DNA from: Escherichia coli
GTDB taxonomy: Bacteria; Pseudomonadota; Gammaproteobacteria; Enterobacterales; Enterobacteriaceae
Length of the DNA: 64,000 bases
Reading direction: 5' to 3' (one strand)
NCBI RefSeq assembly: GCF_011045215.1
Contig: NZ_CP049201.1
Below, in pieces: positions 17,830-37,331 of this stretch. The stretch's first letter is position 1. Every line of letters starts with the position of its first letter. A program made the translations under genes and the position numbers. The notes beneath the pieces are model-generated. The model was not told where the DNA came from and ran no database searches. It worked only from the letters and a program-made list of their open reading frames with translations.

Positions 17830-17898
17830 TGGGAAAGATAAGAATAAAATCAAAGCAATAAGCAGTGTCGTGAAACCACCTTCGGGTGGTTTTTTTGT
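17775..17898 (+). repeat. attL: 124-bp direct repeat (3' 55 nt of leuZ plus 69 nt downstream including terminator hairpin)
   Basis: Identical by eye to 39473..39596; sequence diverges immediately outside both copies. Confidence 0.85.
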
Positions 17899-18370: not shown

Positions 18371-18652
18371 ATGCGATGTGGTTTATTAATGGCAATCTGC
18401 TTTTGTTTGGTATCTTTTAGTGGGTATGCAGCAACAGGAAAGTCTGATGTTCAGATCAAGAAAGAAATAATTAAAGAATCCATTGAATCATATCCAGGCA
18501 ATTGTGCGTGTCCTTATAATCATGCAAGGAATGGTAGTAGGTGTGGTGGACGCAGTGCATATAGCCGTACTGGAGGGTATGATGTGGTATGTTATGAGAG
18601 TGATGTTACTGATGAAATGATCCGGCAATGGAAGCAGGAGAATGCTGATTAA
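18371..18652 (+). CDS. small Cys-rich secreted protein of unknown function (prophage cargo)
   Basis: ORF 18257..18652; probable start MRCGLLMAICFCLVSFSGYA (signal peptide) followed by GNCACPYNHARNGSRCGGRSAYSRTGGYDVVCYESD; AT-rich; followed by hairpin terminator 18729..18761. Confidence 0.5.
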   Translation: MRCGLLMAICFCLVSFSGYAATGKSDVQIKKEIIKESIESYPGNCACPYNHARNGSRCGGRSAYSRTGGYDVVCYESDVTDEMIRQWKQENAD

Positions 18653-18843
18653 TTACTTTTGACTGGTTTGTTTTGCGAGCATTATGTGTGTTGTTAACGG
18701 TACCCTAGCTAAGTGAGAGTTCCAAAATAAAACCCGCAGTTTTTACGCTGCGGGTTTTATTGTTTCTGTCGATGGGATAGGGTGCCACTTCGGCCAGCCT
18801 TGGCAACCGATTGACGGGGGATTACTCCCCCGTCGCGGTTTCC

Positions 18844-18984
18844 TTACTGCTTACACTGTAAGAACGCCGCAAACTCCGCTCCCCAGAAGCTCATCCGTAT
18901 TTCACACAGCGAACCGTGCAGCATCCAGATGATGAGGATTACCGTCACGCAGAACGTGATGGCCGTAAGCGATTTTTGCGACAT
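18844..18984 (-). CDS. Hok/Gef-family type I toxin (46 aa)
   Basis: Manual translation MSQKSLTAITFCVTVILIIWMLHGSLCEIRMSFWGAEFAAFLQCKQ: single TM helix followed by SLCEIR and ...AAF motif as in Hok/Gef; AGGAG-like SD upstream; too short for the ORF track. Confidence 0.7.
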   Translation of the reverse strand: MSQKSLTAITFCVTVILIIWMLHGSLCEIRMSFWGAEFAAFLQCKQ

Positions 18985-19165
18985 AGCGCTTGCTCCTTTT
19001 TAGGGGAGGCGCTAACCTATCACTTGCTAAGGTTAGATGGTTAGGGCCTCGGTTAAACAGGGATGTTTTCCGGGGCCTTTCCACATCTGGCCTTCGGGCA
19101 TACCCTCCGACCATCAGCCGAAAGGCACCCGCGCGTAATCTATCGTTTTTTTGTTGCTTCGGCAA
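18902..19165 (-). other. mok-like overlapping reading frame upstream of and overlapping the hok-like gene
   Basis: 87-aa ORF in another frame that starts upstream of and runs across the hok start, the arrangement seen for mok in hok/sok loci; sequence itself not recognisable. Confidence 0.35.
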
Positions 19166-19174
19166 TTCTGCTCG

Positions 19175-19435
19175 TTAATTCTGAGGTAAAGGCAAACTCA
19201 TCTGATTGTTTCCCCTGTGTGACGTTGGCAGTTCATGCCACGGGATACCTTCTGAAGATCGAACGCCTGAGGTGTGTTTCGATGTGAATTTATGGAAAGC
19301 TTCCAGTGTTGAGAAGCATACGCCGCATTCCAGGTTGTTACACTGGTAATACTTTTGTCGGACGGTGTTTGAATCATTTTCCGGACGACTTGTGCGGATA
19401 CGGGCAGATGCGCCACAAAGCGGACAACGGAACAT
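19175..19435 (-). CDS. ogr: Ogr/Delta-family zinc-finger late-gene transcription activator
   Basis: MFRCPLCGASARIRTSRPENDSNTVRQKYYQCNNLECGVCF: CPLC...CxxxxC pattern and layout as in P2 Ogr (MFHCPLCQHAAHARTSR...YHQCQNVNCSATF). Confidence 0.8.
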   Translation of the reverse strand: MFRCPLCGASARIRTSRPENDSNTVRQKYYQCNNLECGVCFSTLEAFHKFTSKHTSGVRSSEGIPWHELPTSHRGNNQMSLPLPQN

Positions 19436-19678
19436 AGCAACCTCCCTTTAGGTGGTGCTATTCTAAATTTCATCAATGCAGATTCCAACTCCTTCCCACT
19501 TTAAGCGAAGGATGGTGATAAAGTCAGAAGATGTTAGATGAAATCTAAACGGGCGATAAGTTTTCCAATATTTGAATAACAACGTGGCAGGATTTTTGTT
19601 TATCAATTATCTTACACTTTTAAGTGTAATAAATTTGTTAGTGATGACAATATTGTGAGAGGAGATTATCAATTGAAG

Positions 19679-21077
19679 ATGGCAAAAAATAACAATGATA
19701 AAATGCGGGCAAAGTATAGGCCGTTCATAAATATATGGGAACATCTTCCTTCTGAGTTCAATGAACTCATCAAGACGTTAATGGTGCTGATACGGCAAGG
19801 GGAAAATGTGGGAGCTCAGCAAAGGGAGCTTGATTCCATCGAAAACTTCAAACACCTGTTAAGTGGATGGAAGCGGGCGCAAAGGATCATAGCTGATGAA
19901 CTCATTATCAGGCTTTCTCAAATCAAGGATCTGGAGTTAGAAAAGAATTGTGCCCATTCAAAAAAGGACTATGAAACAAAGAAGAAGTGTATACGCAATA
20001 TTGAAAGGACTAGACTAGAAATTAGGATTTTACGTAGGTGCATTGATTCAATTGTATGGGCGATATTCCGCAATGAACACTCGTCTATAAGACGTTTACC
20101 TATAAATAGAAATACTGACAATCTGACAATATTTAATATACATGATTCAATGGTGGTAGCAGATGAAATCAATGCTGATCCGATGGCTATAGCTGTTATC
20201 ACTGATATTACTACGTTTGTACATACTGGTGATTTACTTGCGTTAATACCTCAGCAAGGCATAACTTTAATTGAAATAAAAAGTGGTAAGAAAAATATAG
20301 AGTTTTCAAAGGCGGCTATGTTCTCAGTGCAAAGTAAATGTCTTCATTTTGATGAGATTTATAGAAAAGACCTTGATAAAAATGACTTGAAACACTATGA
20401 CAGAGCTAAGCGTCAACTTAAAAGAGCTCAAAATGTGATAGATGTCATTGAGACTGGTAAGGGATTTGATAACTTTTTTCAGTCTCAAGTAACAATTCAT
20501 GACAGAGATTTTTGTCCCGATTTTTATACAGATAAGATTATTGAGCTTTGGTATGAGATATATAACGGTAAAACTTGGGCGATTACTGACATTAATGATT
20601 GTTTATTCCTTGGGGCATATATTAATTCTAATATGGGTTTTTGCGGTTTTAATGGATGGATGGAGGTATCTAGAATATCGGGGAGAGTGGTTTAATATTC
20701 TTGATAGCTTTTCAGATGCTTTATCACGTCCATTTTTTAGTTTGAACCTACCTGATAAATTGCTTCTGGATATCATTAATGGCAATCTAATTGTTGTGCT
20801 GTGTTTCGATCATCGTCGTTTCGTAGAAAGAGCAAATAAAAAATACCCCGGGATTTATGAGTTATTGGATTTTCCATCTCCGAAGATTAATCCTATGAGT
20901 ATGCTTTCCATCAATGGGAAGGGGGTAGTTTCTAGTGTTGATGGACAGAGTGTTTTTATTGGAAATGGTTACGAAACTCGGATTATTTTTGATCAGCAAT
21001 ATCCAGATAGTCTGATTAAGTGGTCATACCATATGAGTGATCTCAAAAAAATATTGATAAAAAAAAGCGTAAAATGA
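19679..21077 (+). pseudogene. ~470-aa cargo protein with PD-(D/E)xK-like nuclease motif, interrupted by a frameshift near 20660-20690
   Basis: ORFs 19655..20695 and 20499..21077 overlap in different frames; protein-like sequence continues across frames around the direct repeat ggatggatgg; motif HTGDLLALIPQQGITLIEIKSGK (D ... E-x-K); AT-rich; upstream palindrome ttacacttt/taagtgtaa (19612..19629). Confidence 0.5.
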
Positions 21078-21272
21078 AAAAGGAAACGCAAAGAAAAATA
21101 AAAGAGAAAAGAAAACGTAGCAGAAAACAATGCTTAAACTAACACATCTAATGCTTTAATTTGCTTTACTGTTACAATGTCCGCTTACTGGTACAGGGCG
21201 GACTGCCATATTAGATTTGGTTCTATCTCGTAAGAGTGGCCGTTCAGGTCTGCACTAATACATCTGAATGGT

Positions 21273-22382
21273 TCACTCTGTTTCTGCTATCCATTCCGGG
21301 ATTTTTGCTTCAAGCTCAAGCTGCGTGGTAAAGCCGCTGTTATCAATGGTGTGCTCGGCTTTTGCAATAATCCAGTCCTGATTATCAATCTCGCTTTTAA
21401 ATCCTGTTACCGTGCCATGCATTTCGGGGTAGAGTTCTGCGCGTCCGCGTGCCAGTGTGATGGAGAATGATGCGGCTCCGCGTTGTAGTTGTTGCCACTT
21501 TGCCGCCGCTGCGCGTCTTGCTGCCTGCTCGTTCTGATAAGTCTTGCGTAACACAAACACATTGCCTTCCGCGCCTTCCATATAATCACCTTCACGGCTG
21601 CTGCTTTTCTCTTTTTTCGGTTTTGGCGGTTTGCGGCGTTTCACGCTGACTTTTTTCTTTTTCCCGTAATTAAGATCAAGCCAGTAAGCGCGTACCCCCG
21701 TATACGCCTCGCGGTCAGCAATGCGGAACTGATGGCGATCGCCGCTGCTGCGTGTGATGGCGAACGAGGGCAACGGCTGGCCCTGTGCGTTCACGCCACC
21801 GCCGGGCATGATGAATAACAGATTACCGCTTTTTACCGTGGTGATTGCGCCCAGCATTTCCGCCATGCGCGTAAGGAAGGACATGTCACTTTCTTCGGTC
21901 TGGTCGGCGTGGTCGATTTCGATATCCATCAGCATTTCGCTGATTTGCGGTTTCAGACCGTACCGATGAGCGATGGCGGATACCACACGCTCAACGGTCA
22001 CATCATGCCAGGACATCTCACGTTTAACGTTAAATTCATCCCGAAAATCTGCGCTTCTGGCTGAAACAGTCAGCCTGTCCGGCGGTCCTTCGTGTGCGAT
22101 TTCATCAACAATGTAAGAGCCTTTTTCTGTCAGCGGTTCGCCTTTCCAGCCAATGAGAACCGTCAGGCGCGCGCCCCGTGGCGGTAGCCGCAACTGACCA
22201 TCCGCATCATCCAGCGTGATGGTGAGCTGGTCTGCCTCAAATCCCCGGTTGTCGGTCAGCGACAGGCTCATCAGGCGCTCTGCCACGCCGGACAGCGTTT
22301 TACCCTCCGCGAGAATATCAAAATCCGGCATTTTTACGGGGTCTGTGCCCTGACTGAGCAATTGCATGGTGGTGTCGGTCAT
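21273..22382 (-). CDS. P2 gpD-like tail protein (late control gene D)
   Basis: ORF 21273..22514; probable start MTDTTMQLLSQGTDPV...; P2 D-family by recollection and by position next to the tail-gene block. Confidence 0.8.
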   Translation of the reverse strand: MTDTTMQLLSQGTDPVKMPDFDILAEGKTLSGVAERLMSLSLTDNRGFEADQLTITLDDADGQLRLPPRGARLTVLIGWKGEPLTEKGSYIVDEIAHEGPPDRLTVSARSADFRDEFNVKREMSWHDVTVERVVSAIAHRYGLKPQISEMLMDIEIDHADQTEESDMSFLTRMAEMLGAITTVKSGNLLFIMPGGGVNAQGQPLPSFAITRSSGDRHQFRIADREAYTGVRAYWLDLNYGKKKKVSVKRRKPPKPKKEKSSSREGDYMEGAEGNVFVLRKTYQNEQAARRAAAAKWQQLQRGAASFSITLARGRAELYPEMHGTVTGFKSEIDNQDWIIAKAEHTIDNSGFTTQLELEAKIPEWIAETE

Positions 22383-22539
22383 CTGTTCCCTCCCTGTGCG
22401 GCATGGTCGCATGTGCGTGCGGAGGGGGTTACTGCTTTTTGTTGTCGCCGGGTCGGGAGAACGGCGCAGGGGTGAGATTACGCGCGTGGTGGGTGATGAT
22501 TGTTGCCGAATCATTTAACGGATACAAGGGGCTGAAGCT

Positions 22540-23724
22540 ATGAGTGAAACTCGTTTTCATGGTGCCCGTGTTACGGAAAATACCGACCTGGTAACAGCGA
22601 TTAACGATGTTGATTCCAGCGTTATCGGTATCGTGGCAACGGCGGATGATGCGGACGCGAAGCTGTTCCCGCTGAACAAGCCCACACTGCTGACCCGCGT
22701 CAATGACGTGCTGGGAAAATGCGGGACAACGGGGACGCTTTATCGTGCGCTTAAGGCCATCGCAGACCAGGTGAGCACAAAGGTGATCGTCGTTCGCGTG
22801 GCTGAACACAAAGAAGAAGACGGAAAAACGCAGGATCAACTGGTTATCGGTGGTTCTGAATCTGACGGCAGCTATACGGGGATGTATGCGCTGCTTGTTG
22901 CAGAGCAGGATGAAAGCATCGGATACCGTCCGCGTATTCTGGCCGCGCCGGAGCTGGACACGGAGGCGGTAACAAAATCCCTGTGCGTGATTGCGGGTAA
23001 ACTGCGCGCGTTTGTGTATGCCTCATGTCACGGCTGTAACACGATGGCTGAGGCGATTACCTACCGCCAGAAATTCAACGAACGTGAGGTGATGCTCTTA
23101 TGGCCGGACTTCATCGCCTACAACCCGAAAAGTGGCAAAAACGAAACGTTCCCCGCGCCTGCCTATGCGTGCGGCCTTCGTGCGTACATTGACCATGAGC
23201 AGGGATGGCACAAATCACTGTCCAACGTTCCGGTTAAAAATGTGCTGGGGATGTCGAGGCATGTGTTCTGGTCGTTGCAGGCCGAAGACAGCGATGCCAA
23301 CAGCCTCAACAACAAAGAAATCACGACCATTATTCGTCGCAACGGGTTCCGCTTCTGGGGCAACCGCACACCGGAAACGAACGCCTACATCTTTGAGGTG
23401 TATACCCGAACCGCACAGGTGCTGGCTGATTCAATTGCGGAAGCGCAGTTTGAAACCATCGACAGTCCATTAACACCCGCGAACGTGAAGGATGTTATCA
23501 GTGCCATCAGGGCAAAACTGGATTCGCTGGTTACTGCCGGGAAACTGATAGGCGCGGAGTGCTGGTATGACGTGGTGGATAACAGCACCACGGATTTACG
23601 TCAGGGACGTGTGCGTATTCGCTACAAATATACGCCCGTTCCGCCACTGGAAGACATGGAGCTTTACCAGACGTTTACTGATGAATACTTTGAACCCGCA
23701 TTTGCGGTGCTGGGAGGTGCCTGA
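22540..23724 (+). CDS. contractile tail sheath protein (P2 FI-like)
   Basis: 394 aa; shares FPLNKP, KLRAF, WPDF, EQGWHKSLSNV, GFRFWGNRT, YTRTAQV, YTPVPPLE with P2 FI as recalled. Confidence 0.9.
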   Translation: MSETRFHGARVTENTDLVTAINDVDSSVIGIVATADDADAKLFPLNKPTLLTRVNDVLGKCGTTGTLYRALKAIADQVSTKVIVVRVAEHKEEDGKTQDQLVIGGSESDGSYTGMYALLVAEQDESIGYRPRILAAPELDTEAVTKSLCVIAGKLRAFVYASCHGCNTMAEAITYRQKFNEREVMLLWPDFIAYNPKSGKNETFPAPAYACGLRAYIDHEQGWHKSLSNVPVKNVLGMSRHVFWSLQAEDSDANSLNNKEITTIIRRNGFRFWGNRTPETNAYIFEVYTRTAQVLADSIAEAQFETIDSPLTPANVKDVISAIRAKLDSLVTAGKLIGAECWYDVVDNSTTDLRQGRVRIRYKYTPVPPLEDMELYQTFTDEYFEPAFAVLGGA

Positions 23725-24236
23725 TGGCTGTGCCAAAACATCTTCGCTTTTTTACGCTGTTTGTGGATGGTGAAAACGAAGTGGGTAAGGTGACGTCCGT
23801 CACTCTGCCTAAGCTGACGCGCAAAACCGACAGCTACCGGGGTGGCGGCATGATGGGTGCGGTAAGTATTGATCTCGGTCTGGACGACTCCGCGCTTGAT
23901 GCGAGCTTTGTCATGGGGGGCGCAGTTCGTGAGCTGTTCCTTAAGTATGGCGGCACGATTGACGGCACGCTGCTGCGTTTTGCGGGTGAATACTACACCG
24001 ATGCAGAAAGCGACCTGTATGAAGTCGAAATGCGCGGACGTGTGACGGAAATTGATATGGGGGAAGCCAAACAGGGCGAAGCCACATCACACACTTACGC
24101 CATTAAAAACACCTACTACAAGCTGAGTGTTAACGATCGCCCGTTGTGGGAGATTGACCTGCTGAACTTCATTTACCGGAAGGACGGCAAGGACATTGTG
24201 CCCGATCGCATCCGTTCCGCGCTTGGGCTTGGCTGA
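23724..24236 (+). CDS. tail tube protein (P2 FII-like)
   Basis: 170 aa; SVTLPKLTRK...YRGGGM...LGLDD pattern as in P2 FII; directly follows FI. Confidence 0.85.
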   Translation: MAVPKHLRFFTLFVDGENEVGKVTSVTLPKLTRKTDSYRGGGMMGAVSIDLGLDDSALDASFVMGGAVRELFLKYGGTIDGTLLRFAGEYYTDAESDLYEVEMRGRVTEIDMGEAKQGEATSHTYAIKNTYYKLSVNDRPLWEIDLLNFIYRKDGKDIVPDRIRSALGLG

Positions 24237-24290
24237 TAAGTAATATGCAGGCGGCGCAGTGCGTCGCCTCTGACTGAAAGGAGTTTCCTG

Positions 24291-24656
24291 ATGAAAGAGA
24301 CGAAAAACATCGATACCGAAAACACGGTAGTTACTGACACTGTGAAAGAAACCAGTGAGCGTGGCGTAAAACTTACCCAACCAATTGAGCGAGGCGGCGA
24401 AAAAATCACGTATGTGGAGATCACCGGGGCTATTGAGCAGGCTGGATCTCTGCGAGATTTGTCGCTGTCTGATGTGCTGAATCTGAAAGCGGAATCCATG
24501 TTTACGCTGCTGTCACGCGTGACATCACCGCGACTGGATGAAGTGACGATCAAAAAAATGGCATCCCGTGACTTTATTCAGTTATGTGTGGTTGCCGTAA
24601 ATTTTTTGAGCGGTGCGGACTCTGGCGGGAAGAACGAACAGGCGACGGAAGCCTGA
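24291..24656 (+). CDS. tail assembly chaperone (P2 gpE-like)
   Basis: 121-aa ORF between tube and tape-measure genes; contains the slippery site for E' frameshifting. Confidence 0.75.
   Translation: MKETKNIDTENTVVTDTVKETSERGVKLTQPIERGGEKITYVEITGAIEQAGSLRDLSLSDVLNLKAESMFTLLSRVTSPRLDEVTIKKMASRDFIQLCVVAVNFLSGADSGGKNEQATEA
24602..24608 (+). other. predicted -1 programmed ribosomal frameshift site (TTTTTTG) producing E+E' fusion
   Basis: T6G heptamer inside gpE-like ORF; the -1 frame (ORF 24584..24820) extends to the start of the tape-measure gene, as in P2 E/E'. Confidence 0.6.
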
Positions 24657-24770
24657 TCACGGTTGTGTGCTTTGAGCACATAGAAGACTTTGTGGCGGAT
24701 ATTGCCGCCATTTTTAACTGGTCGCCCGCCGAAATCTTCATGATGACGCCCGGCGAAGTGGTTAGCTGGC

Positions 24771-27614
24771 GTGAGCGGGCGGCACTTCGCAGCGGGAATG
24801 CAGACAATGAAGACTCTTGATATCCGGGTCGCTTTCAGCGCCGTTGACAGGCTGACCCGGCCTGCCGAAAACGCCCGCCGCCTGATGGGGCAGTTTGGTG
24901 ACTCCATCCAGCGAACGCAGGGGGCGATCAAAAATCTCGAGCGTCAGGCGCGTTCATTTGAGCGCGCCCGTGACGCTGTCAGTAAAGCGGATGCTGGCAT
25001 ATTGAAAGCACGACGCCAGCTTAACGCCCTTAATCAGTTACAACGCACGGGTACAGTGCTCAGCGAAAAACAACAAAAGCTGATGCAGCAGTTAAGCACC
25101 CGGCTTGAACGCCTGAATGAATCGCGCACACGTGAAATTCAGAAAATGCGGGAGCTTGGCGGAGAGCTGAAACGCCACGGCATTTCCCTGACAGGCAGCG
25201 ATAACACCATCCAGCAGGCCATCAGACGCACCGAACAGTACAACAACCAGCTTGAACGCGAACGGCAGGCGCTTGCGCGTGTAACGCGGGCGCGTGAGCG
25301 GTATTCGCGCGCGCAGGAAACCGCGGGAAAACTGAAAACAGGTGGTGCGCTGGCAATTGGTGCGGCAGCGGCTGGCGGCTATGCTGCCGGGCGTTTTTTG
25401 CAGCCTGCGATCGGGTTCGGCAAAGAGATGTCCCGCGTTCAGGCACTGACGCGAATCGACAAAAACAGCCCGCAGTTTAAGGCGCTGCGTGAGCAGGCGT
25501 TAAAACTTGGCTCTGAAACACAGTTTACTGCGAGTGATGCCGCCAGTGGGCAGAGCTTTCTGGCAATGGCTGGTTTTACTCCGCAGTCCATTCAGGCCGC
25601 ATTGCCCGGTGTTCTTAATATGGCGCTGGCAGGTGGCGTCGAACTCGGCGAGACGGCTGATATAGGCTCCAATATCCTCACACAGTTCAACCTGACAGCC
25701 GATCAAATGGGCCGTGTTGGCGATACGCTGACAGCAGCATTCACCCGGACCAATACTGATTTACGCGCGCTGGGCGAAACCATGAAGTATACCGGTCCGG
25801 TTGCCGCAAAACTTGGTATCAGTCTTGAAGAAGCGGCAGCCATGGCCGGGATGCTTGCCAATAATGGTCTTCGTGGAAGCGATGCTGGTACGGCCATTCG
25901 CGCAAGTCTGTCCCGCCTTGCATCACCGCCAAAAGCTGCGGCTGATGCGCTGAAAGAGCTGGGGGTGTCAGTTGCTGACGCCAGAGGCAAAATGCGCCCG
26001 ATGGAGGATGTGCAGCTTGATCTCTACAAGGCGACACAAAAATACGCACAGGTGGACCAGGTTTCCTTCTTCAAGGACATCGCCGGAGAAGAGGCGTTCG
26101 TTGGTTTGCAGACGCTTGTTGCGGCGTCTGGTTCAGGAGAGCTGCAAAAACTGACCAGAGAATTGCAGGGGGCAAGGGGAGAGGCCGATCGCGTTGCAAA
26201 AGTAATGGCCGATAATCTTGATGGGGACCTGAAAAATCTCGACAGCGCATGGGAAGGTCTTCGTATTCGCATCAGTGATCTGGTTGACGGTCCGCTGCGT
26301 TCTGTCACGCAGTGGCTCACGCGGGGGCTTGAAAAAATCACCTCGCTGGCGCAGGCCCATCCGGTACTGACGCGCCAGCTACTGATAGCAGGCGGTGCGT
26401 TGCTGGCAATGACTGTAACGATTGGCTCGTTGTCGCTGGTTATTGGGGGGCTTTACGGGAAGCTGGCTACCTTGCGTCTTGGTTTTGACATTCTTACCCG
26501 GTCAATGAATGTCGTCAGGGTGTTGCCTGCGCTGTGGGGAATGGTGACGGGTTCCGTTTCTTTACTGGGAGGCGCTATCGGGGCGCTGTTCAGTCCGGTT
26601 GGTCTTATCGTGGCTGCGCTTGCCGGAGCTGCCGTTCTTATCTGGAAATACTGGGATCCCATCAGGGCATTTTTTGCAGGGGTGTTCAGCGGGATTATGG
26701 AAAGGCTGACCCCGTTGCGCGAAACCTTTGAACGGTTTGGTCCTGTTTTTGACGCAATCGGAAGCGGGATCAGCCAGGTGTTTAACTGGTTTAAATTGCT
26801 GCTGTCACCGATGGAGTCCAGCAAGGAAACGCTGGATAAATGCACCAGTGCTGGCGAGGTATTCGGTAACGTTCTTGGTGGCGCGTTACAGCTTGTTCTG
26901 ACGCCTGCAAAAATGCTGCTGGATACGCTGGCGTGGATACTTGAAAAACTCGGTGTGCTTCCGGATGAGGCGGAAAGGGCGCGTAAGAAAATCGAAGACG
27001 CACAGCGTGCGGCCATTCTTCAGGACAAGGTTGCCTTGCTTCAGGGGGATCTGGCGAAAATCAATCCGCCGAAGCCTGTGGAAAATGGCAATGGCACCGG
27101 AGGTGATAAACCCAAAGACAACAAACCGCTCACAGACAGCAATACCGGGACGCTACGCAGACTCAGCAAAATTGCTGATAACACAGGTAAGCTGGTTGAT
27201 GAGACGAAAAAACGCATTGGCCCCGGCGATATTGTCTTTAAGAACCTGCCCCGCGCACTTGCTGTTCGTGGGGAGTGGCAGGAGCGGAAGATTGCGCAGG
27301 TCAGTAAGCCTGCCCCCGCAATTAATATCACACCTGTGGTCCCGGCTCCGCTGCCTCCGACGCTGGTCCCTGTTGTTGCGGCCAGCTCCCGCCCGGTGGC
27401 GGAGTCCATACGATCTCCAGTGGCATCAGTTCCTGCAACTTCCCGTAACCGGGAGCCTGTTGCCTCCGGATTTGGCGGTGAAATTCATGTTCATCTGCAT
27501 AACGTTGTTACGCAGAATCCCCGCGAACTGGCGAAACTGGTCGGCGAAATGGTCAGTGCAGAAATGGAACGGCGCGCCCGTGCCAGGCGTGGCAGTTTTT
27601 ACGATAAAGATTGA
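24771..27614 (+). CDS. tail tape-measure protein (P2 gpT-like)
   Basis: 947-aa ORF, coiled-coil N-terminus, Gly/Ala-rich hydrophobic central segments; position after E/E'. Confidence 0.9.
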   Translation: MSGRHFAAGMQTMKTLDIRVAFSAVDRLTRPAENARRLMGQFGDSIQRTQGAIKNLERQARSFERARDAVSKADAGILKARRQLNALNQLQRTGTVLSEKQQKLMQQLSTRLERLNESRTREIQKMRELGGELKRHGISLTGSDNTIQQAIRRTEQYNNQLERERQALARVTRARERYSRAQETAGKLKTGGALAIGAAAAGGYAAGRFLQPAIGFGKEMSRVQALTRIDKNSPQFKALREQALKLGSETQFTASDAASGQSFLAMAGFTPQSIQAALPGVLNMALAGGVELGETADIGSNILTQFNLTADQMGRVGDTLTAAFTRTNTDLRALGETMKYTGPVAAKLGISLEEAAAMAGMLANNGLRGSDAGTAIRASLSRLASPPKAAADALKELGVSVADARGKMRPMEDVQLDLYKATQKYAQVDQVSFFKDIAGEEAFVGLQTLVAASGSGELQKLTRELQGARGEADRVAKVMADNLDGDLKNLDSAWEGLRIRISDLVDGPLRSVTQWLTRGLEKITSLAQAHPVLTRQLLIAGGALLAMTVTIGSLSLVIGGLYGKLATLRLGFDILTRSMNVVRVLPALWGMVTGSVSLLGGAIGALFSPVGLIVAALAGAAVLIWKYWDPIRAFFAGVFSGIMERLTPLRETFERFGPVFDAIGSGISQVFNWFKLLLSPMESSKETLDKCTSAGEVFGNVLGGALQLVLTPAKMLLDTLAWILEKLGVLPDEAERARKKIEDAQRAAILQDKVALLQGDLAKINPPKPVENGNGTGGDKPKDNKPLTDSNTGTLRRLSKIADNTGKLVDETKKRIGPGDIVFKNLPRALAVRGEWQERKIAQVSKPAPAINITPVVPAPLPPTLVPVVAASSRPVAESIRSPVASVPATSRNREPVASGFGGEIHVHLHNVVTQNPRELAKLVGEMVSAEMERRARARRGSFYDKD

Positions 27615-27620
27615 GGAGTC

Positions 27621-28115
27621 ATGGCCATGATGATGATCTATGGCATGTTTGTTTTTGAGCTGCGCACACTGCCACATCAGCAGTTACAGCAAAACAAAAG
27701 CTGGCGGCATGTGAAAAATGAACGCGTTAACCGTTCAGCAAGCTGGCAGTATATCGGTGCAGGTGATGATCGCATCGTTCTTTCCGGCGTGCTTTATCCT
27801 GAAATTACAGGTGGTGAAGTGTCGCTGTCGCTGCTGACCACGCAGGCATATACAGGGCGGCCCTGGCCTCTGATTGATGGTGTCGGGCAGATTTACGGCA
27901 TGTATGTCCTGACCGGAACGAATACGACCCGCTCCGAGTTTGATCGCTACGGTAAGGCGAAAAAAATAGAATTTTCACTGACCCTTGAACGCTGTGATGA
28001 GGATTTGCGGGAGCGCCTGCAATCCTCATCGTTCAGCGATATGCTGTCCGGCTTCAAAGATAAGGTGACATCATCCCTTAACAGCGCGGCCAGTTCAGTT
28101 AAAGGACTGTTCTGA
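27621..28115 (+). CDS. tail protein (P2 gpU-like)
   Basis: 164-aa ORF directly after tape-measure gene; MMIYGMFVFELRTLPHQQLQ... P2 U-like. Confidence 0.8.
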   Translation: MAMMMIYGMFVFELRTLPHQQLQQNKSWRHVKNERVNRSASWQYIGAGDDRIVLSGVLYPEITGGEVSLSLLTTQAYTGRPWPLIDGVGQIYGMYVLTGTNTTRSEFDRYGKAKKIEFSLTLERCDEDLRERLQSSSFSDMLSGFKDKVTSSLNSAASSVKGLF

Positions 28116-28211
28116 TTTTACATTGCCGCCGATACCCTCATATTGGGTAATGGGCGGCTTGTTGTTATATAATATATCGTAGGTCCTGATAAAACTGTTG
28201 AGGTTTCTACT

Positions 28212-29450
28212 TTATAAAGAATTGCTACTTTCTAATTCTGGGTTTCTGGATCTATTTTTACAACCTAAATCCGAGTGGTAATTCGGTATATCGTTTGTCA
28301 AATCTTGTTTGATAGCATTAATTAAGATCATTATGTCGAATTTATGCATATCGTCGCCCCCTTCAGACCTTAGATGTTCGGATGTGGTGAGTTGAGTCGC
28401 TAATTTGCTGTTTGGCCCCCACACAATATTGTTTTCGAATTTTCCTTCATGCATTCTGTTATTATATATACAGTATTGTCTAATGTTTAATCCACTGGCT
28501 AAATGTACAATAGCAGTATCTACAGTTATAACAAAATCAGCATGGCGAACCAATGCAAATGAACATCCGGCATCAGAAAATGGAGATAGAGACACATTAT
28601 CCAATCCATTGTGATTAATCTGTTCTCCCATATTAAAAACTATTGTGTGATATCCCTTAAGGTTATTAAGGTAAGCTAGTACTTTGTTTATCTGTTCATC
28701 AGATAATGTTCTGCTATTCTGAGAACCATAAGGGTTAAATATAACTAATTTTTTGTTTTTCTTCCTGAATTCATTTGCAACAATATTTGCTGGTTCATAT
28801 ATTTTGTTGTCAAAATTAAGCGCTGCAGCATAATTATTATTTTTTATCTTTAGTAAAGATAAAACTTTTTTCATTCTTTCAGATGTGTGAATGGAACGAT
28901 TATCGATTATATTTGTATCAAAAATAGTTACGGCAGGATGATTAAAACAGATAGAGTGTTTAGGTCTAAGTAAATGTAGTGTTTGCAATCTGGTTATCGC
29001 TGTGTTATCAAAATTTGAGAAGTCAACAACAAGATCTACATTCAGTTTTTTTATCTTTGCTTTTAGTTCGTTAAATTTATTTTTCTCGTAAGATATAAAG
29101 GCATCCACGCCAACAATATCAGTAAAGAGGAATGATACTCTTGAAGGTGCTATCACATATACCACCATACCGGATTTTTGAAGTTGTTTAATAAACCCTG
29201 AGGTAACGATGCCGTCACCAATGGCTTGCATGTGCATGAAAATGCACACTGTTTTATAACTATCCGGCTGTAATGATGTTTTCCTTCTGTATCGCATTTT
29301 TAGAAATGCCAGTCTGGCCTTCGTCTTTATCTTTTTTGTTTTAATATTTCGCTCTCTGTTAAGCTGTTTTAATGATGAAATAACATTCATAATGGTACCC
29401 TGAAAATCCAAATCACACATGTCATCCGAAATGAGCAGGATACTATACAA
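28212..29450 (-). CDS. glycosyltransferase family 9 (LPS heptosyltransferase-like) cargo gene
   Basis: 412-aa ORF, very AT-rich; N-terminal ...MQAIGDGIVTSGFIKQL and C-terminal ...FVITVDTAIVHLASGLN resemble the GT9 motifs of WaaC/WaaF-type enzymes; start may be internal. Confidence 0.6.
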   Translation of the reverse strand: MYSILLISDDMCDLDFQGTIMNVISSLKQLNRERNIKTKKIKTKARLAFLKMRYRRKTSLQPDSYKTVCIFMHMQAIGDGIVTSGFIKQLQKSGMVVYVIAPSRVSFLFTDIVGVDAFISYEKNKFNELKAKIKKLNVDLVVDFSNFDNTAITRLQTLHLLRPKHSICFNHPAVTIFDTNIIDNRSIHTSERMKKVLSLLKIKNNNYAAALNFDNKIYEPANIVANEFRKKNKKLVIFNPYGSQNSRTLSDEQINKVLAYLNNLKGYHTIVFNMGEQINHNGLDNVSLSPFSDAGCSFALVRHADFVITVDTAIVHLASGLNIRQYCIYNNRMHEGKFENNIVWGPNSKLATQLTTSEHLRSEGGDDMHKFDIMILINAIKQDLTNDIPNYHSDLGCKNRSRNPELESSNSL

Positions 29451-29484
29451 AAAACTGGACTACAATGGTTTGAAATGAAAGCCT

Positions 29485-30084
29485 TTATGCTTGTTTACTC
29501 CTTGATTCCACTGGGGAAGCAGGCCACTCAATATCCGGTGCTCTTGATGTATCAACACGGTTCAGCAGCACTCGATACTTCTTCCATGCCACCAGTAACG
29601 ATGTTTCTTCCTCTGTTGCAATATTCAAATCTACGGCATCTTGAAGTGGCGAAATATGCTCACTGGCTACCTGCATGAGGCTGTTTTTTGTTTCTTCCGC
29701 CTCCCGTATCCGGAACACTTTTTCTGCTTCTGCATCTTTCACCCACGTTGTGCCGTTCCACTTCTGAAACTCCCCTTCCGGGGATAACCAGGTGACATTT
29801 TCCGGTAATGGACCGAGTTCAGAAATAAATAACGCGCCCCCTGATGCCACGTCATAAACCGTTTTACCACGATGATCTTCAACGAGATGCCAGGACGTCT
29901 TATCACTGTTGAAAATAGCCACGAAGCCAGCTGGAATATCTGGCGGAGAAATATCAGTACTATTTGCAGGTAGACCTGTATGAGGTGGAATGTATGCATC
30001 ACCTTCACCAATAAATTCATTGGTTCCGACCAGCAGATTATAAATTTTTATGGTTCGTGGTTGTTCACTCATTCTGAATGCCAT
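29485..30084 (-). CDS. tail fibre assembly chaperone (Tfa / P2 G-like)
   Basis: 199-aa ORF immediately downstream of the tail-fibre fragment; Tfa-like C-terminus (...[22 protein letters not shown]). Confidence 0.8.
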
Positions 30085-31259
30085 TATGCAAGCCTCACAA
30101 TATAGTTAAATGCGATGTTTTTTACGGTGTTTTCCGCGTTGCCATAAGCGGCAATGGTAATGGTGTGTGTGTGCGAACCAATAGCGAGCGTATGTGTATG
30201 CGCACCTATTGCTACTGTGTGAGTATGAGCTCCTGCGCTTAATACGCGATTACTTGCTGTCTTGCTTGTGTTAGTTGCATGCATTCCACCACCGGTACCG
30301 GGAGTTTCTGCGTATGCTGAAGTATTGTTGTAAGCAAAGTTGTGTGTATGTGCTCCGGTGTTATTTGTGGATTTAGTTCCGTAATCAAACGACGATGTGG
30401 TTTTCGTCCCCAAATCCGTACTGGATGCGCTGGCGCTGTGGGTGTGCGATTTAATGCCGTCCTGTTCCTGAGACAATACGGCTCGACCACTGGCTGGTTT
30501 GCCCTTAATCGTCCAGCCACGCATATCAGGGATCACGCCTGACGGATAAGCGGCTGCAAGTTTCGGGTATGCAGATTTGTCAAAAGTCTGCCCCTGCATC
30601 AGGGCATAACCAGACGGAACGGTATCTGATGGCCACGGGATTGGTGCGCCAGGCGGATAAAACTGCTCTGATGGCGTATAGAGTGAATAAACTGTACCGT
30701 CCGTTAACCCTTCCGGCTTATTAGCAGAATATGCTGGTGACGTATGAATCGTCACGCTGGCATTACTGGTATAATCCCATTGAATATTTACACCAGTCGC
30801 ATAATTTCCGATTGCAACGTAAATATCGTAAGTATCACCAGATGTATTGACCCAGGCAAAATTTGTAAACCCTGTCGATGTGCGCTGCCATAAAGCACCA
30901 GTAATCCCCTTCGGATTACCATTACCTGCACGCAAAACAAGTTCAGATATACCTGCCTGTTGAGGTGAACCGACGTTATATCCAGCCCCACCAATCAACG
31001 TAATTGAAACAACAGAACTCGCCTGCGGCATGGTTACCGTTGCTAATTTGAACCAACCAGCACCACCGCTAAATGACATAGTTGTTGAGTTAAGCGTACC
31101 AATATCTTTCGGTGTCAGTGTTATATCCGCTGAAAGCGCCTTACCATTCACCTTACGGGCAGAAGGTACGGTCTGGCAAGAGCCGCCCGGCAAACGTCCT
31201 GGCATCAGTCTGCGCTTTACTTTAAGCGCAATGTATTGCTCGGTTGCTACATCCCGCAC
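30084..31259 (-). pseudogene. tail fibre protein, C-terminal portion only (N-terminus deleted)
   Basis: 391-aa ORF with HTHT/His-x-His repeats ([24 protein letters not shown]) typical of fibre tips; reading frame runs into the portal fragment junction at ~31236-31259. Confidence 0.7.
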
Positions 31260-32030
31260 CCGCTGCTTTCCCGGCAGGATTTCTCGGCGCTGGCGCTGGA
31301 CTGGTTTGTGTTCGGTAACGCATTCCTTGAGCTTCGGAGCAATATGCTCGGCGAACCACTTAAATTACGGCACGCACTGGCGAAATACATGCGACGCGGA
31401 AGCGATCTTGAATCATGGTGGTATGTGCAGGATGGCAAGGACGCGTTTCAGTTTCGCCCTGGCAAAGTGTGCCACCTGATGAATCCGGACATTAACCAGG
31501 AAATTTACGGCATGCCGGAATATCTTGGAGCATTACTCTCGGCCAGCCTGTCTCATTCGGCGGACATGTTCAGAAAACTGTATTACGACAACGGATCCCA
31601 CGCCGGGTGCATCATCTACATCGGTGCAGCGCAGGTAAACCGCGAAAGCATGGACTCCCTGAAAGAAACGTTACAGGGTGCGCGTGGTGGTGGTGCGTTT
31701 AAAAACGTGCTCATCCACGCGCCCAACGGGGGCAAAGAGGGGGTGCAAATTTTGCCGTTCCAGCAGATCACCGCAAAGGATGAGTTCATGAATGTTAAGG
31801 CGGCATCCCGTGATGATGTGCTGGCTGCGCACCGCGTTCCGCCGCAACTGATGGGGGCGATGCCGGGCGAAAAAAGTGCGTTTGGTGATGTGGAGAAGGC
31901 CGCGCGGGTTTACGCAATTAACGAGCTGATGCCCGTCATGGAGGCTATGAAGCACATCAATGACTGGCTTGGCGAAGAGGTGATCCGCTTTAACCCTTAC
32001 GCACTGCTGGACACCCAGCCCACATCCTGA
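31236..32030 (+). pseudogene. portal protein fragment (P2 gpQ-like, C-terminal part)
   Basis: 264-aa ORF divergent from the tail-fibre fragment; portal-like sequence (…IYGMPEYLGALLSASLSHSADMFRKLYYDNGSHAG…); shorter than P2 Q (recalled ~344 aa); P,O,N,M,L and baseplate genes absent. Confidence 0.6.
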
Positions 32031-32560
32031 CGCGCTTCGCTTGTCTGCTGCTTCGCCGGGGCATAAAAAATTTATGCCCCGACTCTCCAGCTCCTGTATC
32101 AATCAGATAATTTCACGACGTCTTCCAGCTTATTGCCATCATCGACGGTCAGGCTCTTACGCAATCCCATCGCGCTGACTGCATGTTCTCGCCGCCTCAG
32201 TGCGATTTTGACGGCCTTATCTGCCACCCCATCAAATCAAAAGCCCTCACGTCTTTTTCACGCTCAGCGTGAGAAATACAGCCATTCTGTTGTGTTGCTG
32301 CGACATCGTTCAGGGGATGCTATTTATCCCCTGAAACGCGGGCTGTTCCCCCGTCACCTGCGCGCAGAAAAAACGCGTTTTTTTGTGCACGCACGGATCC
32401 TTGACGGATCCAGCCGCCACGGGGGCCGGAAGGGCAAAAAGTCGTTCAAAAAAATTGTGCAAATTTGTGCACTATCGTGCAGTGTGCATCGTGCTGTTTT
32501 CTGCGCAAAAAACGGATGGTAAATTTGTTCGTAGCAGGGAAATTTTAATGAGCGCAAGAC

Positions 32561-33091
32561 ATGAAGAAAGATTCATATCCTTATTTGATTTGCATGACTG
32601 TTTCAGTGCTAGGGATTATTTTCCTCTTTTACTGGTGGAGGGCAGATATCTACAGGATTACATATCTTAATTCGCGTATATCCAATTATTACATCTTGTG
32701 TAGTATGGGTATGTCCTTTTTCTTCTCCTTGTTTCTGGTGAAGAGGGGGGTAGTGAAGCAAAGTGGCTGGAAAGGACTGTCGGAATACCTGAAGGTTTAT
32801 GCTGGCTCTTGCATTCTTACAGGGATATTCCTGATTATTCCTCTTATGATGGTGACTTATTTTTTACCAGGAGTAACATCATCATATGTTGCACCGTATG
32901 AGTATACATCTGGTAGTTCAAGAAGCTGTTCCGGAGCGTTTGTTGATGATCCCGAACTGCATAAAAATATTCTTATTTGCTATCCGTATGGTAACTATGA
33001 ATATGACAATATTATCTATGTTGAAAAGAAAACTAATGCATTGGGCGTTGTTGTGACGTATGCACAGACTGCACGAGACGATGCTGAATAA
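32561..33091 (+). CDS. integral membrane protein of unknown function (hotspot cargo)
   Basis: 176 aa, about 3-4 hydrophobic helices then a soluble tail; AT-rich; preceded by TGTGCA-type repeats at 32455..32494. Confidence 0.55.
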   Translation: MKKDSYPYLICMTVSVLGIIFLFYWWRADIYRITYLNSRISNYYILCSMGMSFFFSLFLVKRGVVKQSGWKGLSEYLKVYAGSCILTGIFLIIPLMMVTYFLPGVTSSYVAPYEYTSGSSRSCSGAFVDDPELHKNILICYPYGNYEYDNIIYVEKKTNALGVVVTYAQTARDDAE

Positions 33092-33282
33092 GATACTACA
33101 GATATAGTCCACTTTTTTGTTTATTTGTCGGGATAAAAACAAATTACCCCGACTCACCATGTATTAATCTTCCGCTTTAAGTTAGTATTTTAGCTGCGCT
33201 GTCCTGCTATTCAGCAAAGCGGCGTACTTTAATGCGTCCTGTGCTTTCTGGAATTTAAGTGCATAGTCAGTGGCGATTTTTT

Positions 33283-33564: not shown

Positions 33565-33627
33565 TAAGTCGTTCTCCTTGTTTATGTTCTGAGGTGGAGA
33601 GCAGGGCGAACTCGCCCTGATGTTGTG

Positions 33628-33929: not shown

Positions 33930-33943
33930 GTGTCGTCATTGGT

Positions 33944-34893: not shown

Positions 34894-34932
34894 AAATTTT
34901 CATGTCGCTTTTCCTTATGTTGATTAATTAAT

Positions 34933-37316: not shown

Positions 37317-37331
37317 TAGTAGGGAGGTGAC

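What the first reader, a model, noticed from the sequence alone, without database searches (positions are those of the whole stretch)
24584..24820. Conserved E/E' programmed -1 frameshift signal retained in a decayed prophage
A TTTTTTG slippery heptamer (24602..24608) lies in the gpE-like gene with the -1 frame open up to the tape-measure start, the same mechanism as P2 E/E' and analogous to lambda G/GT. Its retention, together with intact FI, FII, T, U and D, suggests ongoing selection on the tail module (for example tailocin-like or domesticated use), although no baseplate genes are present.
Basis: partly seen in the sequence, partly recalled or inferred. Interest (0 to 1): 0.3.

Follow-up and report, generated by a model that had tools for sequence, protein, structure and literature searches.

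The report
P2-type tail chaperone frameshift site
This is the well-known ribosome "slip" site that P2-like phages use to make two versions of a tail-assembly helper protein; it sits in a broken prophage of E. coli, and nothing shows it is kept there by selection rather than simply not yet decayed.

Summary
TTTTTTG lies at 24602-24608 in phase (T_TTT_TTG) with the gpE-like gene (24291-24656). The -1 frame stays open to 24820 and overlaps the tape-measure ATG (24807) by 14 nt. The predicted products are E (121 aa) and E+E' (176 aa). E aligns to P2 gpE up to the slip site (VNFLS vs VGFLS). E' matches Pfam Phage_P2_GpE. The -1 frame shows strong purifying selection (omega 0.06). The module belongs to a P88-like (Xuanwuvirus) P2-family prophage at leuZ (17775-39596). 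Around the slip site it is nucleotide-identical to the plaque-forming phage P88.

One refinement: the site is a 10-nt tract, AAATTTTTTG, holding two overlapping in-phase heptamers. A second allele in complete E. coli prophages (AAATTTTATG) keeps only A_AAT_TTT.

The "ongoing selection / tailocin" interpretation is not supported.
- Baseplate wedge, spike, head and lysis genes are absent.
- This remnant's deletion junction occurs in none of 5,426 complete E. coli genomes.
- Only two small inactivating mutations exist in about 14 kb of retained coding sequence, so the tail block escaping both has a chance of about 0.28.
- The tape-measure gene shows an excess of lineage-private nonsynonymous changes (15N:7S, p=0.002).

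Ordinary and already known; low interest.

The parts
24291..24656 (+). gpE-like tail assembly chaperone gene (E, 121 aa), zero frame; AAGGAG Shine-Dalgarno upstream
   Evidence: ORF. PHROG 103 tail protein, 2e-35. BLASTP to P2 gpE: 32% identity over 85 aa, E=6e-12, ending at the slip site. Pfam PF10109 Phage_TAC_7 is sub-threshold at 17.2 bits.
24599..24608 (+). Slippery tract AAATTTTTTG, made of two overlapping in-phase heptamers: A_AAT_TTT (24599-24605) and T_TTT_TTG (24602-24608)
   Evidence: T_TTT_TTG is identical to, and positionally homologous with, the P2 site. A_AAT_TTT is the only heptamer kept in the second allele (MSHS133, TOK-001, Shae_phiSM).
24605..24820 (+). E' : the -1 frame extension read after the slip (about 70 codons plus TGA). 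Together with E residues 1-106 it gives E+E' of 176 aa.
   Evidence: Pfam PF06528 Phage_P2_GpE, 2e-12. PHROG 1756, 4.5e-39. 45% identity to P2 E'. dN/dS is 0.06 in the -1 frame against 1.1 and 3.4 in the other two frames.
24807..27614 (+). Tape measure gene T (935 aa); its ATG overlaps the end of E' by 14 nt
   Evidence: Pfam PF10145, 5.7e-55. Intact and the same length as 11 relatives. Shows an excess of private nonsynonymous changes.
22540..23724 (+). Tail sheath gene FI (394 aa), intact
   Evidence: Pfam PF04984, PF22671 and PF17482. 98.9% identity to P88.
23724..24236 (+). Tail tube gene FII (170 aa), intact
   Evidence: Pfam PF04985, 7.5e-47.
27621..28115 (+). gpU-like tail gene (164 aa ORF; RefSeq relatives start 6 nt later), intact
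   Evidence: Pfam PF06995, 1.5e-38.
21273..22382 (-). gpD-like baseplate hub gene (369 aa), transcribed divergently from FI. The 413-aa ORF running to 22514 is over-extended.
   Evidence: Pfam PF05954. ATG at 22382 is preceded by GGGAGGG. VG35A2 has a 1-bp deletion in the upstream extension but an intact 369-aa ORF. The same divergent layout is seen in phage P88.
22383..22539 (.). D/FI divergent intergenic region (presumed late promoters), 98.5% identical to P88
   Evidence: Alignment of 9 sequences. Promoter function is inferred, not shown.
19175..19435 (-). ogr/Delta-like late-gene activator, intact
   Evidence: 99.6% identity to the annotated ogr of MSHS133, full-length ORF.
17775..39596 (.). 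Decayed Xuanwuvirus-like prophage at leuZ (tRNA-Leu UAA, 17743-17829), bounded by 124-bp direct repeats at 17775-17898 and 39473-39596
   Evidence: A complete 36-kb relative occupies the same site in E. coli MSHS 133.
31165..31169 (.). Deletion junction (5-bp microhomology) joining the interior of tail-fibre gene H to the interior of portal gene Q. About 11.4 kb is lost: I, J, W, V, S, R, the lysis genes, X, L, M, N, O, P.
   Evidence: blastn against MSHS133. tblastn of the missing proteins finds nothing in the window.

Best explanation
The feature is the programmed -1 ribosomal frameshift cassette of the P2-family tail assembly chaperone genes E/E+E'. It was inherited as part of the FI-FII-E-E'-T-U tail operon of a P88-like (Xuanwuvirus, Peduoviridae) prophage integrated at leuZ.

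Most ribosomes translating E (24291-24656) terminate at TGA 24654-24656 and make the 121-aa gpE. A minority slip back one base on the tract AAATTTTTTG (24599-24608). The slip occurs either at T_TTT_TTG, as in P2, or at the overlapping A_AAT_TTT. These ribosomes continue in the -1 frame to 24820 and make a 176-aa E+E' fusion whose C-terminal domain is the conserved GpE' domain.

By analogy with P2 E/E+E' and lambda G/GT, both proteins would chaperone the tape measure protein T and recruit tube subunits during tail assembly. The end of E' overlaps the T start codon, which suggests translational coupling.

In this window the cassette is intact because the prophage decayed by a few recent large deletions that happened to spare the tail operon. 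There is no demonstrated selection for a host function.

Shown: the geometry, the homology, the frame-specific constraint, and the decay state of the prophage. Inferred: that frameshifting actually occurs, its efficiency, the chaperone role, and whether the operon is still expressed.
For: - In-phase heptamer and open -1 frame ending 14 nt into T.
- E aligns to P2 gpE (E=6e-12), with the alignment ending at the homologous VNFLS/VGFLS slip codons. E' is 45% identical to P2 E' and passes the Pfam PF06528 threshold.
- The same two-frame arrangement, with a slippery heptamer at the equivalent place, occurs in P2, P88, 500465-2, Chuche, KSP20, SEN4, Yersinia YenM_201.16, Burkholderia ST79 and Mannheimia 1127AP1. 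tblastn of the fused protein returns two-piece (two-frame) hits across Peduoviridae.
- dN/dS between the two E. coli alleles is 0.06 (unique part) and 0.14 (overlap) in the -1 frame, against 0.57-3.4 in the other frames. Constraint on the -1 frame therefore begins right after the slip site.
- Literature: P2 shifts at TTTTTTG to give the 91-aa E and the 142-aa E+E', without a stimulatory hairpin (PMC3091744, citing Christie 2002 and Xu 2004). The lambda G/GT chaperone model is described in PMC5009743.
- The slip-site region is nucleotide-identical to that of P88, a plaque-forming phage (PMC5285337).
- No significant downstream RNA structure is predicted (z=-1.41), as in P2.
- Decay and recency.
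Against: - No direct evidence of the frameshift product in this lineage. RefSeq and GenBank records annotate E' as a free-standing 51-aa ORF.
- Pfam's gpE chaperone model PF10109 is only sub-threshold for E (17.2 bits against a cut-off of 25).
- A second allele lacks TTTTTTG, so the exact slip codon in this lineage is uncertain.
- FI, FII, E and U carry no private nonsynonymous changes (0 N against 11 S). This is compatible with some continued constraint, so selection is not excluded.
Confidence: 0.9

Rival explanations
1. The tail module (ogr, D, FI, FII, E/E', T, U) is maintained by selection in the host as a domesticated or tailocin-like device, or as a supplier of tail parts in trans.
For: - All six tail genes and ogr are intact, while a cargo gene and parM carry inactivating point mutations and three deletions hit other modules.
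- FI, FII, E and U have 0 private nonsynonymous against 11 synonymous changes.
- A second, independent remnant (TOK-001) also keeps exactly hok-ogr-cargo-D-FI..U.
Against: - No V, W, J, I, R, S, X, lysis or head genes anywhere in the window, and tail fibre H is truncated. A functional contractile particle cannot be encoded here.
- Both remnant forms are singletons among 5,426 genomes. TOK-001's alleles are identical to those of a complete prophage, which indicates very recent events.
- The chance that two small hits both miss the tail block is about 0.28.
- T has a private N:S of 15:7, against 92:195 elsewhere (p=0.002).
- Tail operons of relatives are disrupted by IS100 or IS1 in other strains.
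Confidence: 0.06
2. Frameshifting does occur, but in this lineage the operative site is A_AAT_TTT (24599-24605) rather than the P2-type T_TTT_TTG. The junction peptide would then be ..VNF-F-ER.. instead of ..VNF-L-ER...
For: - The second allele found in complete prophages (MSHS133), in TOK-001 and in the Citrobacter phage Shae_phiSM reads GTA AAT TTT ATG. It keeps only A_AAT_TTT in phase while preserving the full E' frame.
- Klebsiella Kp4847-1 likewise has its only in-phase heptamer (C_CCT_TTC) one codon upstream of the P2 position.
Against: - The window allele carries the exact P2 heptamer at the position homologous to P2's experimentally defined site.
- Both heptamers may be used. No efficiency data are available here.
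Confidence: 0.35
3. The long product arises by transcriptional slippage: RNA polymerase adds one U on the T6 run. Ribosomal frameshifting is not involved.
For: A homopolymeric T6 run is present. Insertion of one U in the mRNA would give the same fusion frame.
Against: - Six residues is short for efficient polymerase slippage (general knowledge; known cases use runs of about 8-9 or more).
- The second allele has only T4 yet conserves the two-frame arrangement.
- Other family members use heteropolymeric heptamers such as G_GGA_AAG.
Confidence: 0.04
4. E' is an independent small gene started at its own codon: GTG 24665, as in RefSeq annotation of relatives, or ATG 24584. No recoding is involved.
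For: PGAP and GenBank annotate a separate 51-aa 'GpE family phage tail protein' in all relatives examined.
Against: - The annotated start is ATG in relatives but GTG here, and ATG 24584 is GTG in the other allele.
- No Shine-Dalgarno sequence is visible in the sequence upstream of either candidate start.
- Purifying selection on the -1 frame extends upstream of 24665, right to the slip site (omega 0.14 in the overlap).
- In P2 the -1 ORF opens only 9 nt before the heptamer, so no independent start exists there, and the P2 record annotates the joined product.
Confidence: 0.03

Closest known systems
Bacteriophage P2 E / E+E' programmed -1 frameshift in the FETUD tail operon (Christie et al. 2002; cited in PMC3091744)
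   Same: - Position between tube gene FII and tape measure gene T.
- T_TTT_TTG heptamer at the homologous codons (V-x-F-L-S).
- -1 ORF ending a few nt inside T.
- E' domain 45% identical, E 32% identical.
- No predicted stimulatory hairpin.
   Different: - E is 121 aa rather than 91, with a longer N-terminus.
- E+E' is 176 aa rather than 142.
- The E/E' overlap is 85 nt rather than 37.
- An extra overlapping heptamer A_AAT_TTT is present.
- The operon lacks D at its end: D is transcribed divergently upstream of FI.
- Here the operon lies in a defective prophage.
Escherichia phage P88 and relatives (Xuanwuvirus; also Gemsvirus 500465-2, phage Chuche)
   Same: - 94.5-97.7% nucleotide identity over FI-U.
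- Identical slip-site region.
- The same divergent D / FI-U layout, and hok and ogr at the prophage end.
   Different: - P88 is complete and forms plaques. The window element has lost H (5' part), I, J, W, V, S, R, the lysis genes, X, L, M, N, O, P, Q (5' part), A (5' part) and the early genes.
- It carries a GT9 glycosyltransferase where P88 has a DNA invertase and an invertible fibre segment.
Phage lambda G/GT tail assembly chaperone frameshift (Levin 1993; Xu, Hendrix and Duda 2004, 2013, 2014; summarised in PMC5009743)
   Same: The same logic: two chaperone forms from one start by -1 slippage, encoded immediately upstream of the tape measure gene.
   Different: - No sequence similarity was tested or expected.
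- Lambda uses G_GGA_AAG.
- Siphovirus rather than myovirus tail.
R-type tailocins (P2-related contractile bacteriocins such as R-pyocins)
   Same: They contain homologous sheath, tube, E/E'-like chaperone, tape measure, U and D genes.
   Different: Tailocin loci also keep the baseplate wedge, spike, fibres and a lysis cassette, and are conserved across strains. None of these holds here.

Membership tests
P2-type E/E+E' tail-chaperone -1 frameshift cassette | Located between the tail tube gene and the tape measure gene | tested here: met
   FII 23724-24236, E 24291-24656, T 24807-27614.
P2-type E/E+E' tail-chaperone -1 frameshift cassette | Second ORF in the -1 frame overlapping the 3' end of the first and running to the tape measure start | tested here: met
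   -1 frame open 24572-24820, an 85-nt overlap with E, ending 14 nt inside T.
P2-type E/E+E' tail-chaperone -1 frameshift cassette | In-phase X_XXY_YYZ slippery heptamer inside the overlap, at the position homologous to P2's TTTTTTG | tested here: met
   T_TTT_TTG at 24602-24608. The alignment with P2 ends at VNFLS/VGFLS.
P2-type E/E+E' tail-chaperone -1 frameshift cassette | E' homologous to GpE' (Pfam PF06528) | tested here: met
   46.8 bits against a cut-off of 23, E=2e-12. 45% identity to P2 E'.
P2-type E/E+E' tail-chaperone -1 frameshift cassette | E homologous to the gpE chaperone (Pfam PF10109 Phage_TAC_7) | tested here: inconclusive
   Pfam gives 17.2 bits, below the cut-off of 25. However, pairwise BLASTP to P2 gpE gives E=6e-12 over 85 aa, and PHROG 103 gives 2e-35.
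P2-type E/E+E' tail-chaperone -1 frameshift cassette | -1 frame under purifying selection from the slip site onward | tested here: met
   omega is 0.14 (overlap) and 0.06 (unique part) in the -1 frame, against 0.57-3.4 in the other frames.
P2-type E/E+E' tail-chaperone -1 frameshift cassette | Frameshift fusion protein actually produced | not testable with these tools
   Needs protein expression, mass spectrometry or ribosome profiling.
R-type tailocin / domesticated contractile tail | Baseplate wedge and spike genes (V, W, J, I) and tail completion genes (R, S, X) | tested here: not met
   tblastn of the MSHS133 proteins against the whole window finds no hits at 1e-3.
R-type tailocin / domesticated contractile tail | Complete tail fibre and a lysis cassette for release | tested here: not met
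   H is truncated at 31169 (only part of the 730-codon gene remains). Holin and endolysin are absent.
R-type tailocin / domesticated contractile tail | The same defective locus conserved across strains | tested here: not met
   0 of 5,426 complete E. coli genomes span the H'/Q' junction. The exact T protein is not on record.
Xuanwuvirus (P88-like Peduoviridae) prophage | High nucleotide identity and the characteristic gene order (hok, ogr, D divergent from FI-U) | tested here: met
   94.5% identity to P88 over FI-U. Gene order as.
Xuanwuvirus (P88-like Peduoviridae) prophage | Complete, potentially inducible genome | tested here: not met
   Three deletions, plus frameshift and nonsense mutations.

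The most novel reading that the evidence does not exclude
The partial tail block (ogr, D, sheath, tube, E/E+E', tape measure, U) is kept by selection in a prophage that has lost its baseplate, head and lysis genes. One possibility is that it supplies tail components in trans to a co-resident P2-like phage or satellite. Another is that it forms sheath/tube assemblies with a host function. The absence of private nonsynonymous changes in FI, FII, E and U (0 N against 11 S) would be its footprint.
Probability: 0.05. Interest if true: 0.45.

Novelty: already known. Interest (0 to 1): 0.08.

Why it matters
It matters little beyond annotation. The E/E+E' frameshift is a textbook feature of P2-family tails and is conserved across tailed phages.

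Two modest practical points follow.
- Public records of P88-like phages and prophages annotate E' as a free-standing 51-aa gene instead of a joined frameshift product. About a quarter of complete E. coli genomes (1,375 of 5,426) carry this tape-measure/tail operon type, so the misannotation is widespread.
- Natural alleles with AAATTTTTTG and AAATTTTATG provide a ready-made comparison for asking which heptamer is used.

The case also shows that intact genes in a decayed prophage are not in themselves evidence of domestication.

Tried and rejected
- I first took the opposite orientation of FI-U relative to D, G and H to be an inversion in the remnant. This was rejected: functional phage P88 and complete prophages have the same layout.
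- I looked for a stimulatory RNA structure downstream of the slip site. The MFE was not significant (z=-1.41). A 9-bp hairpin lies about 47 nt downstream, which is too far.
- I searched for the P2 Ogr-site consensus TGT-N12-ACA in the D/FI intergenic region. There is no exact match there, and 18 matches in the window is at the chance level. A one-mismatch candidate exists, but promoter function was not established.
- I looked for other strains with the same remnant. The junction is not spanned in any complete E. coli genome, and the exact T protein is not on record. A within-remnant population dN/dS was therefore impossible.
- I tried PADLOC on the cargo ORFs and found no defence-system hits.
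- The Christie 2002 paper (PMC135442) is not held. P2 facts were taken from PMC3091744 and from the P2 GenBank annotation.
- I initially counted VG35A2 D as frameshifted. This was withdrawn: its 1-bp deletion lies upstream of the real D start.
Full report
OBSERVATION

The sequence at 24580-24620 reads ...GTT GCC GTA AAT TTT TTG AGC GGT... in the frame of the ORF 24291-24656. TTTTTTG therefore occupies 24602-24608 in the canonical X_XXY_YYZ phase: T, then TTT at 24603, then TTG at 24606.

The -1 frame is open from 24572 to the TGA at 24818-24820. The tape-measure ATG is at 24807, so the -1 ORF overlaps it by 14 nt.

The predicted products are E (121 aa) and E+E' (176 aa). E+E' consists of residues 1-106 of E plus 70 residues from the -1 frame.

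The heptamer by itself is common: 44 copies in the window against about 26 expected. The whole geometry is not. Of 123 ORFs of at least 90 aa, three have an in-phase XXXYYYZ near the 3' end followed by at least 60 open -1 codons. Two of those lie inside or antisense to other ORFs, which leaves E as the only standalone case.

WHAT IT IS

- Neighbouring genes, from Pfam: sheath FI 22540-23724, tube FII 23724-24236, tape measure T 24807-27614, gpU 27621-28115, and gpD on the opposite strand.
- E': the -1 peptide passes Pfam PF06528 (Phage_P2_GpE; 46.8 bits, 2e-12). It matches PHROG 1756 and is 45% identical to P2 E'.
- E: it matches PHROG 103. It aligns to P2 gpE at 32% identity over 85 aa (E=6e-12), and the alignment ends exactly at the slip codons, VNFLS against VGFLS. 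Pfam's gpE chaperone model PF10109 is only sub-threshold at 17.2 bits.
- P2 reference: the P2 GenBank record annotates the joined E+E' product and the slip position. PMC3091744 states that P2 shifts -1 at TTTTTTG to give a 91-aa E and a 142-aa E+E', without a stimulatory hairpin.
- RNA structure: no significant structure is predicted downstream here either (z=-1.41).

RELATIVES

The FI-U block is 94.5% identical to Escherichia phage P88 (Xuanwuvirus) and 97.7% identical to phage 500465-2. P88 is mitomycin-inducible and forms plaques (PMC5285337). Around the slip site the window is nucleotide-identical to P88, 500465-2 and Chuche.

I first suspected that the opposite orientation of FI-U relative to D and the fibre genes was an inversion. 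It is the native layout of P88 and of complete prophages.

Across Peduoviridae the two-frame arrangement is conserved, with a slippery heptamer at the equivalent place:
- TTTTTTG in P2, KSP20, SEN4 and Yersinia YenM_201.16
- TTTTTTT in Burkholderia ST79
- G_GGA_AAG in Mannheimia 1127AP1

tblastn of the fused protein gives two-piece, two-frame hits in many genera.

A REFINEMENT OF THE SLIP SITE

The window's site is really the 10-nt tract AAATTTTTTG (24599-24608). It contains a second in-phase heptamer, A_AAT_TTT.

A second E allele reads GTA AAT TTT ATG. It occurs in the complete prophage of E. coli MSHS 133, in TOK-001 and in Citrobacter phage Shae_phiSM. The P2-type heptamer is gone and only A_AAT_TTT remains, yet the E' frame is fully preserved. 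Klebsiella Kp4847-1 similarly has its only in-phase heptamer one codon upstream. So in this lineage the slip may occur at either heptamer. The products differ only at one junction residue.

Between the two alleles, substitutions give these dN/dS values:

| Region | -1 frame | Zero frame | +1 frame |
|---|---|---|---|
| Unique part of E' | 0.06 | 1.1 | 3.4 |
| E/E' overlap | 0.14 | 0.57 | 3.1 |

The -1 frame is therefore constrained right from the slip site. This argues against the free-standing 51-aa E' ORF that RefSeq and GenBank annotate in all relatives. The start of that ORF is not even conserved: it is GTG here and ATG elsewhere.

THE PROPHAGE

The element spans 17775-39596. It is bounded by 124-bp direct repeats, and the left one includes the 3' part of leuZ tRNA-Leu(UAA). 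It lies between pgsA and the tRNA genes on one side and yecA on the other.

E. coli MSHS 133 has a complete 36-kb relative at the same site. Compared with it, the window has lost:
1. About 11.4 kb at a junction with 5-bp microhomology at 31165-31169. This runs from inside fibre gene H to inside portal gene Q and removes I, J, W, V, S, R, the lysis genes, X, L, M, N, O and P.
2. The 5' part of replication gene A, at 36519/36520.
3. About 2 kb of early genes near 36700.

There are also two small inactivating mutations:
- The cargo gene between ogr and D (19679-21077) has a +1 G at 20689.
- parM has TGG changed to TGA at 34799-34801.

tblastn with the MSHS133 baseplate, tail-completion, head and lysis proteins finds nothing anywhere in the 64-kb window.

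D, FI, FII, E/E', T, U and ogr are full-length. D is 21273-22382 (369 aa), with a GGGAGGG Shine-Dalgarno sequence. The 413-aa ORF is over-extended. 'Decayed prophage with intact tail operon' is therefore correct. 'No baseplate genes' is correct for the wedge and spike genes, although D and U are hub-type proteins by their Pfam families.

IS THE TAIL MODULE UNDER ONGOING SELECTION?

Evidence that looks favourable:
- Pairwise dN/dS of 0.04-0.2 for all tail genes.
- No private nonsynonymous changes in FI, FII, E or U (0 N against 11 S).

The pairwise values mostly reflect history as a functional phage. E is 100% identical, and FI and FII are 98.9-99.4% identical, to alleles in complete prophages or phages.

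Evidence against:
- The locus cannot encode a contractile particle, as shown above.
- The H'/Q' junction is spanned in 0 of 5,426 complete E. coli genomes, and the exact T protein is not on record in the large assembly collection.
- A second, independent remnant that keeps hok-ogr-cargo-D-FI..U, followed by a defence island, occurs in TOK-001. It is also a singleton (1 of 5,426). Its FI, FII, T and U alleles are identical to those of the complete MSHS133 prophage, so it is very recent.
- Only two small inactivating mutations lie in about 14.2 kb of retained coding sequence. The 6.65-kb tail block escapes both with probability of about 0.28.
- T carries 15 nonsynonymous and 7 synonymous lineage-private substitutions, against 92 and 195 in ten other alleles (Fisher p=0.002). 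This gives omega of about 0.7 against about 0.16. D has 2 N and 0 S. This suggests relaxed constraint on at least part of the module.
- Related tail operons are interrupted by IS100 (phages 520873 and 503458) or IS1 (STEC409) in other strains.

The heterogeneity (T relaxed, FI/FII/E/U clean) is not fully explained. The mosaic pattern of best matches per gene suggests that recent recombination brought in the FI-E segment. I conclude that retention of the frameshift signal needs no special explanation beyond recency. Selection is not excluded, but it is unsupported.

MECHANISM (INFERRED)

When the late operon is transcribed, ribosomes initiating at ATG 24291 mostly terminate at 24654-24656 and give gpE. 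The promoter is presumably in the 157-bp D/FI intergenic region, which is 98.5% identical to that of P88, and is presumably activated by the intact Ogr.

A minority of ribosomes slip -1 on AAAUUUUUUG and read on to 24820, giving E+E'. By analogy with P2 and with lambda G/GT (PMC5009743), E and the E part of E+E' coat the tape measure protein. The E' domain recruits tube subunits, and neither protein ends up in the virion.

Not shown here: expression, efficiency, and the exact slip codon.

Rivals:
- Polymerase slippage on the T6 run. This is unlikely, because the second allele has only T4.
- Independent initiation of E'. This is unlikely, for the reasons given above.

VERDICT

This is a correct identification of a well-known recoding signal in a P2-family prophage remnant. 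The added inference of domestication is not supported. Novelty: already known. Interest: low.

Noticed in passing
window 19679-21077 (+): The cargo gene in the variable slot between ogr and D is a pseudogene here. A single extra G at 20689 splits a 465-487-aa hypothetical protein that is intact in MSHS133 and TOK-001. Other strains carry different cargo in this slot: a PIN-domain protein in M19, and ComF-like plus hypothetical proteins in VG35A2. No PADLOC or Pfam hit.
   Followed up: partly
window 33944-34903 (-), stop at 34799-34801: The plasmid-type partition gene parM of the prophage carries a nonsense mutation (TGG to TGA at codon 35). The adjacent stbB-like gene (33628-33939) is intact.
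   Followed up: yes
window 28212-29390 (-): An intact family-9 glycosyltransferase (LPS heptosyltransferase-like; weak Pfam hit of 22.6 bits; PHROG 36326) sits between U and the fibre-assembly gene. P88 has a DNA invertase and an invertible fibre segment at this position. It is a candidate lysogenic-conversion gene, found with complete prophages in A8, M19, 94-3024 and VG35A2.
   Followed up: partly
window 31165-31169; ORF 30084-31259 (-): The 11.4-kb deletion junction has 5-bp microhomology. It fuses the 3' part of tail-fibre gene H to antisense portal sequence, creating a chimeric 391-aa ORF. The portal fragment is 31165-32030 (+).
   Followed up: yes
window 24665-24820 and 21273-22514; loci L001, L002, L003, L014-L017: There are annotation problems in public records of this phage group. 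E' is annotated as a free-standing 51-aa gene rather than a joined frameshift product. D is called as a 266-aa protein plus a spurious pseudo-fragment (PGAP) or as 413 aa. The start at 22382, preceded by GGGAGGG, fits best.
   Followed up: partly
L004 (TOK-001) 26746-49802 and L018: This is an independent singleton remnant at the same leuZ site. It keeps hok-ogr-cargo-D-FI-FII-E-E'-T-U, followed directly by a defence island (type I restriction fragment, M48 peptidase, DUF262, PD-(D/E)XK, restriction endonuclease, MZA system mzaA-E) and then yecA. No integrase or other phage genes are present.
   Followed up: partly
window 24807-27614 (+): The tape measure gene has 15 nonsynonymous and 7 synonymous substitutions not seen in any of 10 other distinct alleles (from 11 relatives); the pooled figure for the others is 92:195 (p=0.002). 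The flanking FI, FII, E and U have 0 nonsynonymous and 11 synonymous private changes. The cause of this heterogeneity is unresolved; candidates are relaxed constraint on T, mosaic recombination, or something else.
   Followed up: partly
L017 (MSHS133) 8397-8935; L007 (Shae_phiSM): A second E allele in E. coli and Citrobacter P88-like prophages reads AAATTTTATG at the slip site. It lacks the P2 heptamer and keeps only A_AAT_TTT. It is about 85% identical to the window allele over the 3' 296 nt, with a divergent N-terminus.
   Followed up: yes
window 17743-17829: The prophage is integrated in leuZ, the gene for tRNA-Leu(UAA). By standard wobble rules (general knowledge, not tested here) this tRNA can read UUG, which is the A-site codon of the T_TTT_TTG slip site. 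Noted as a curiosity only.
   Followed up: no
window 24692-24711 (+): A terminator-like hairpin (GTGGCGGATATTGCCGCCAT followed by a TTTTAAC T-run) lies inside the conserved E' coding region (ADIAAIF motif). It is probably a by-product of the coding sequence.
   Followed up: no
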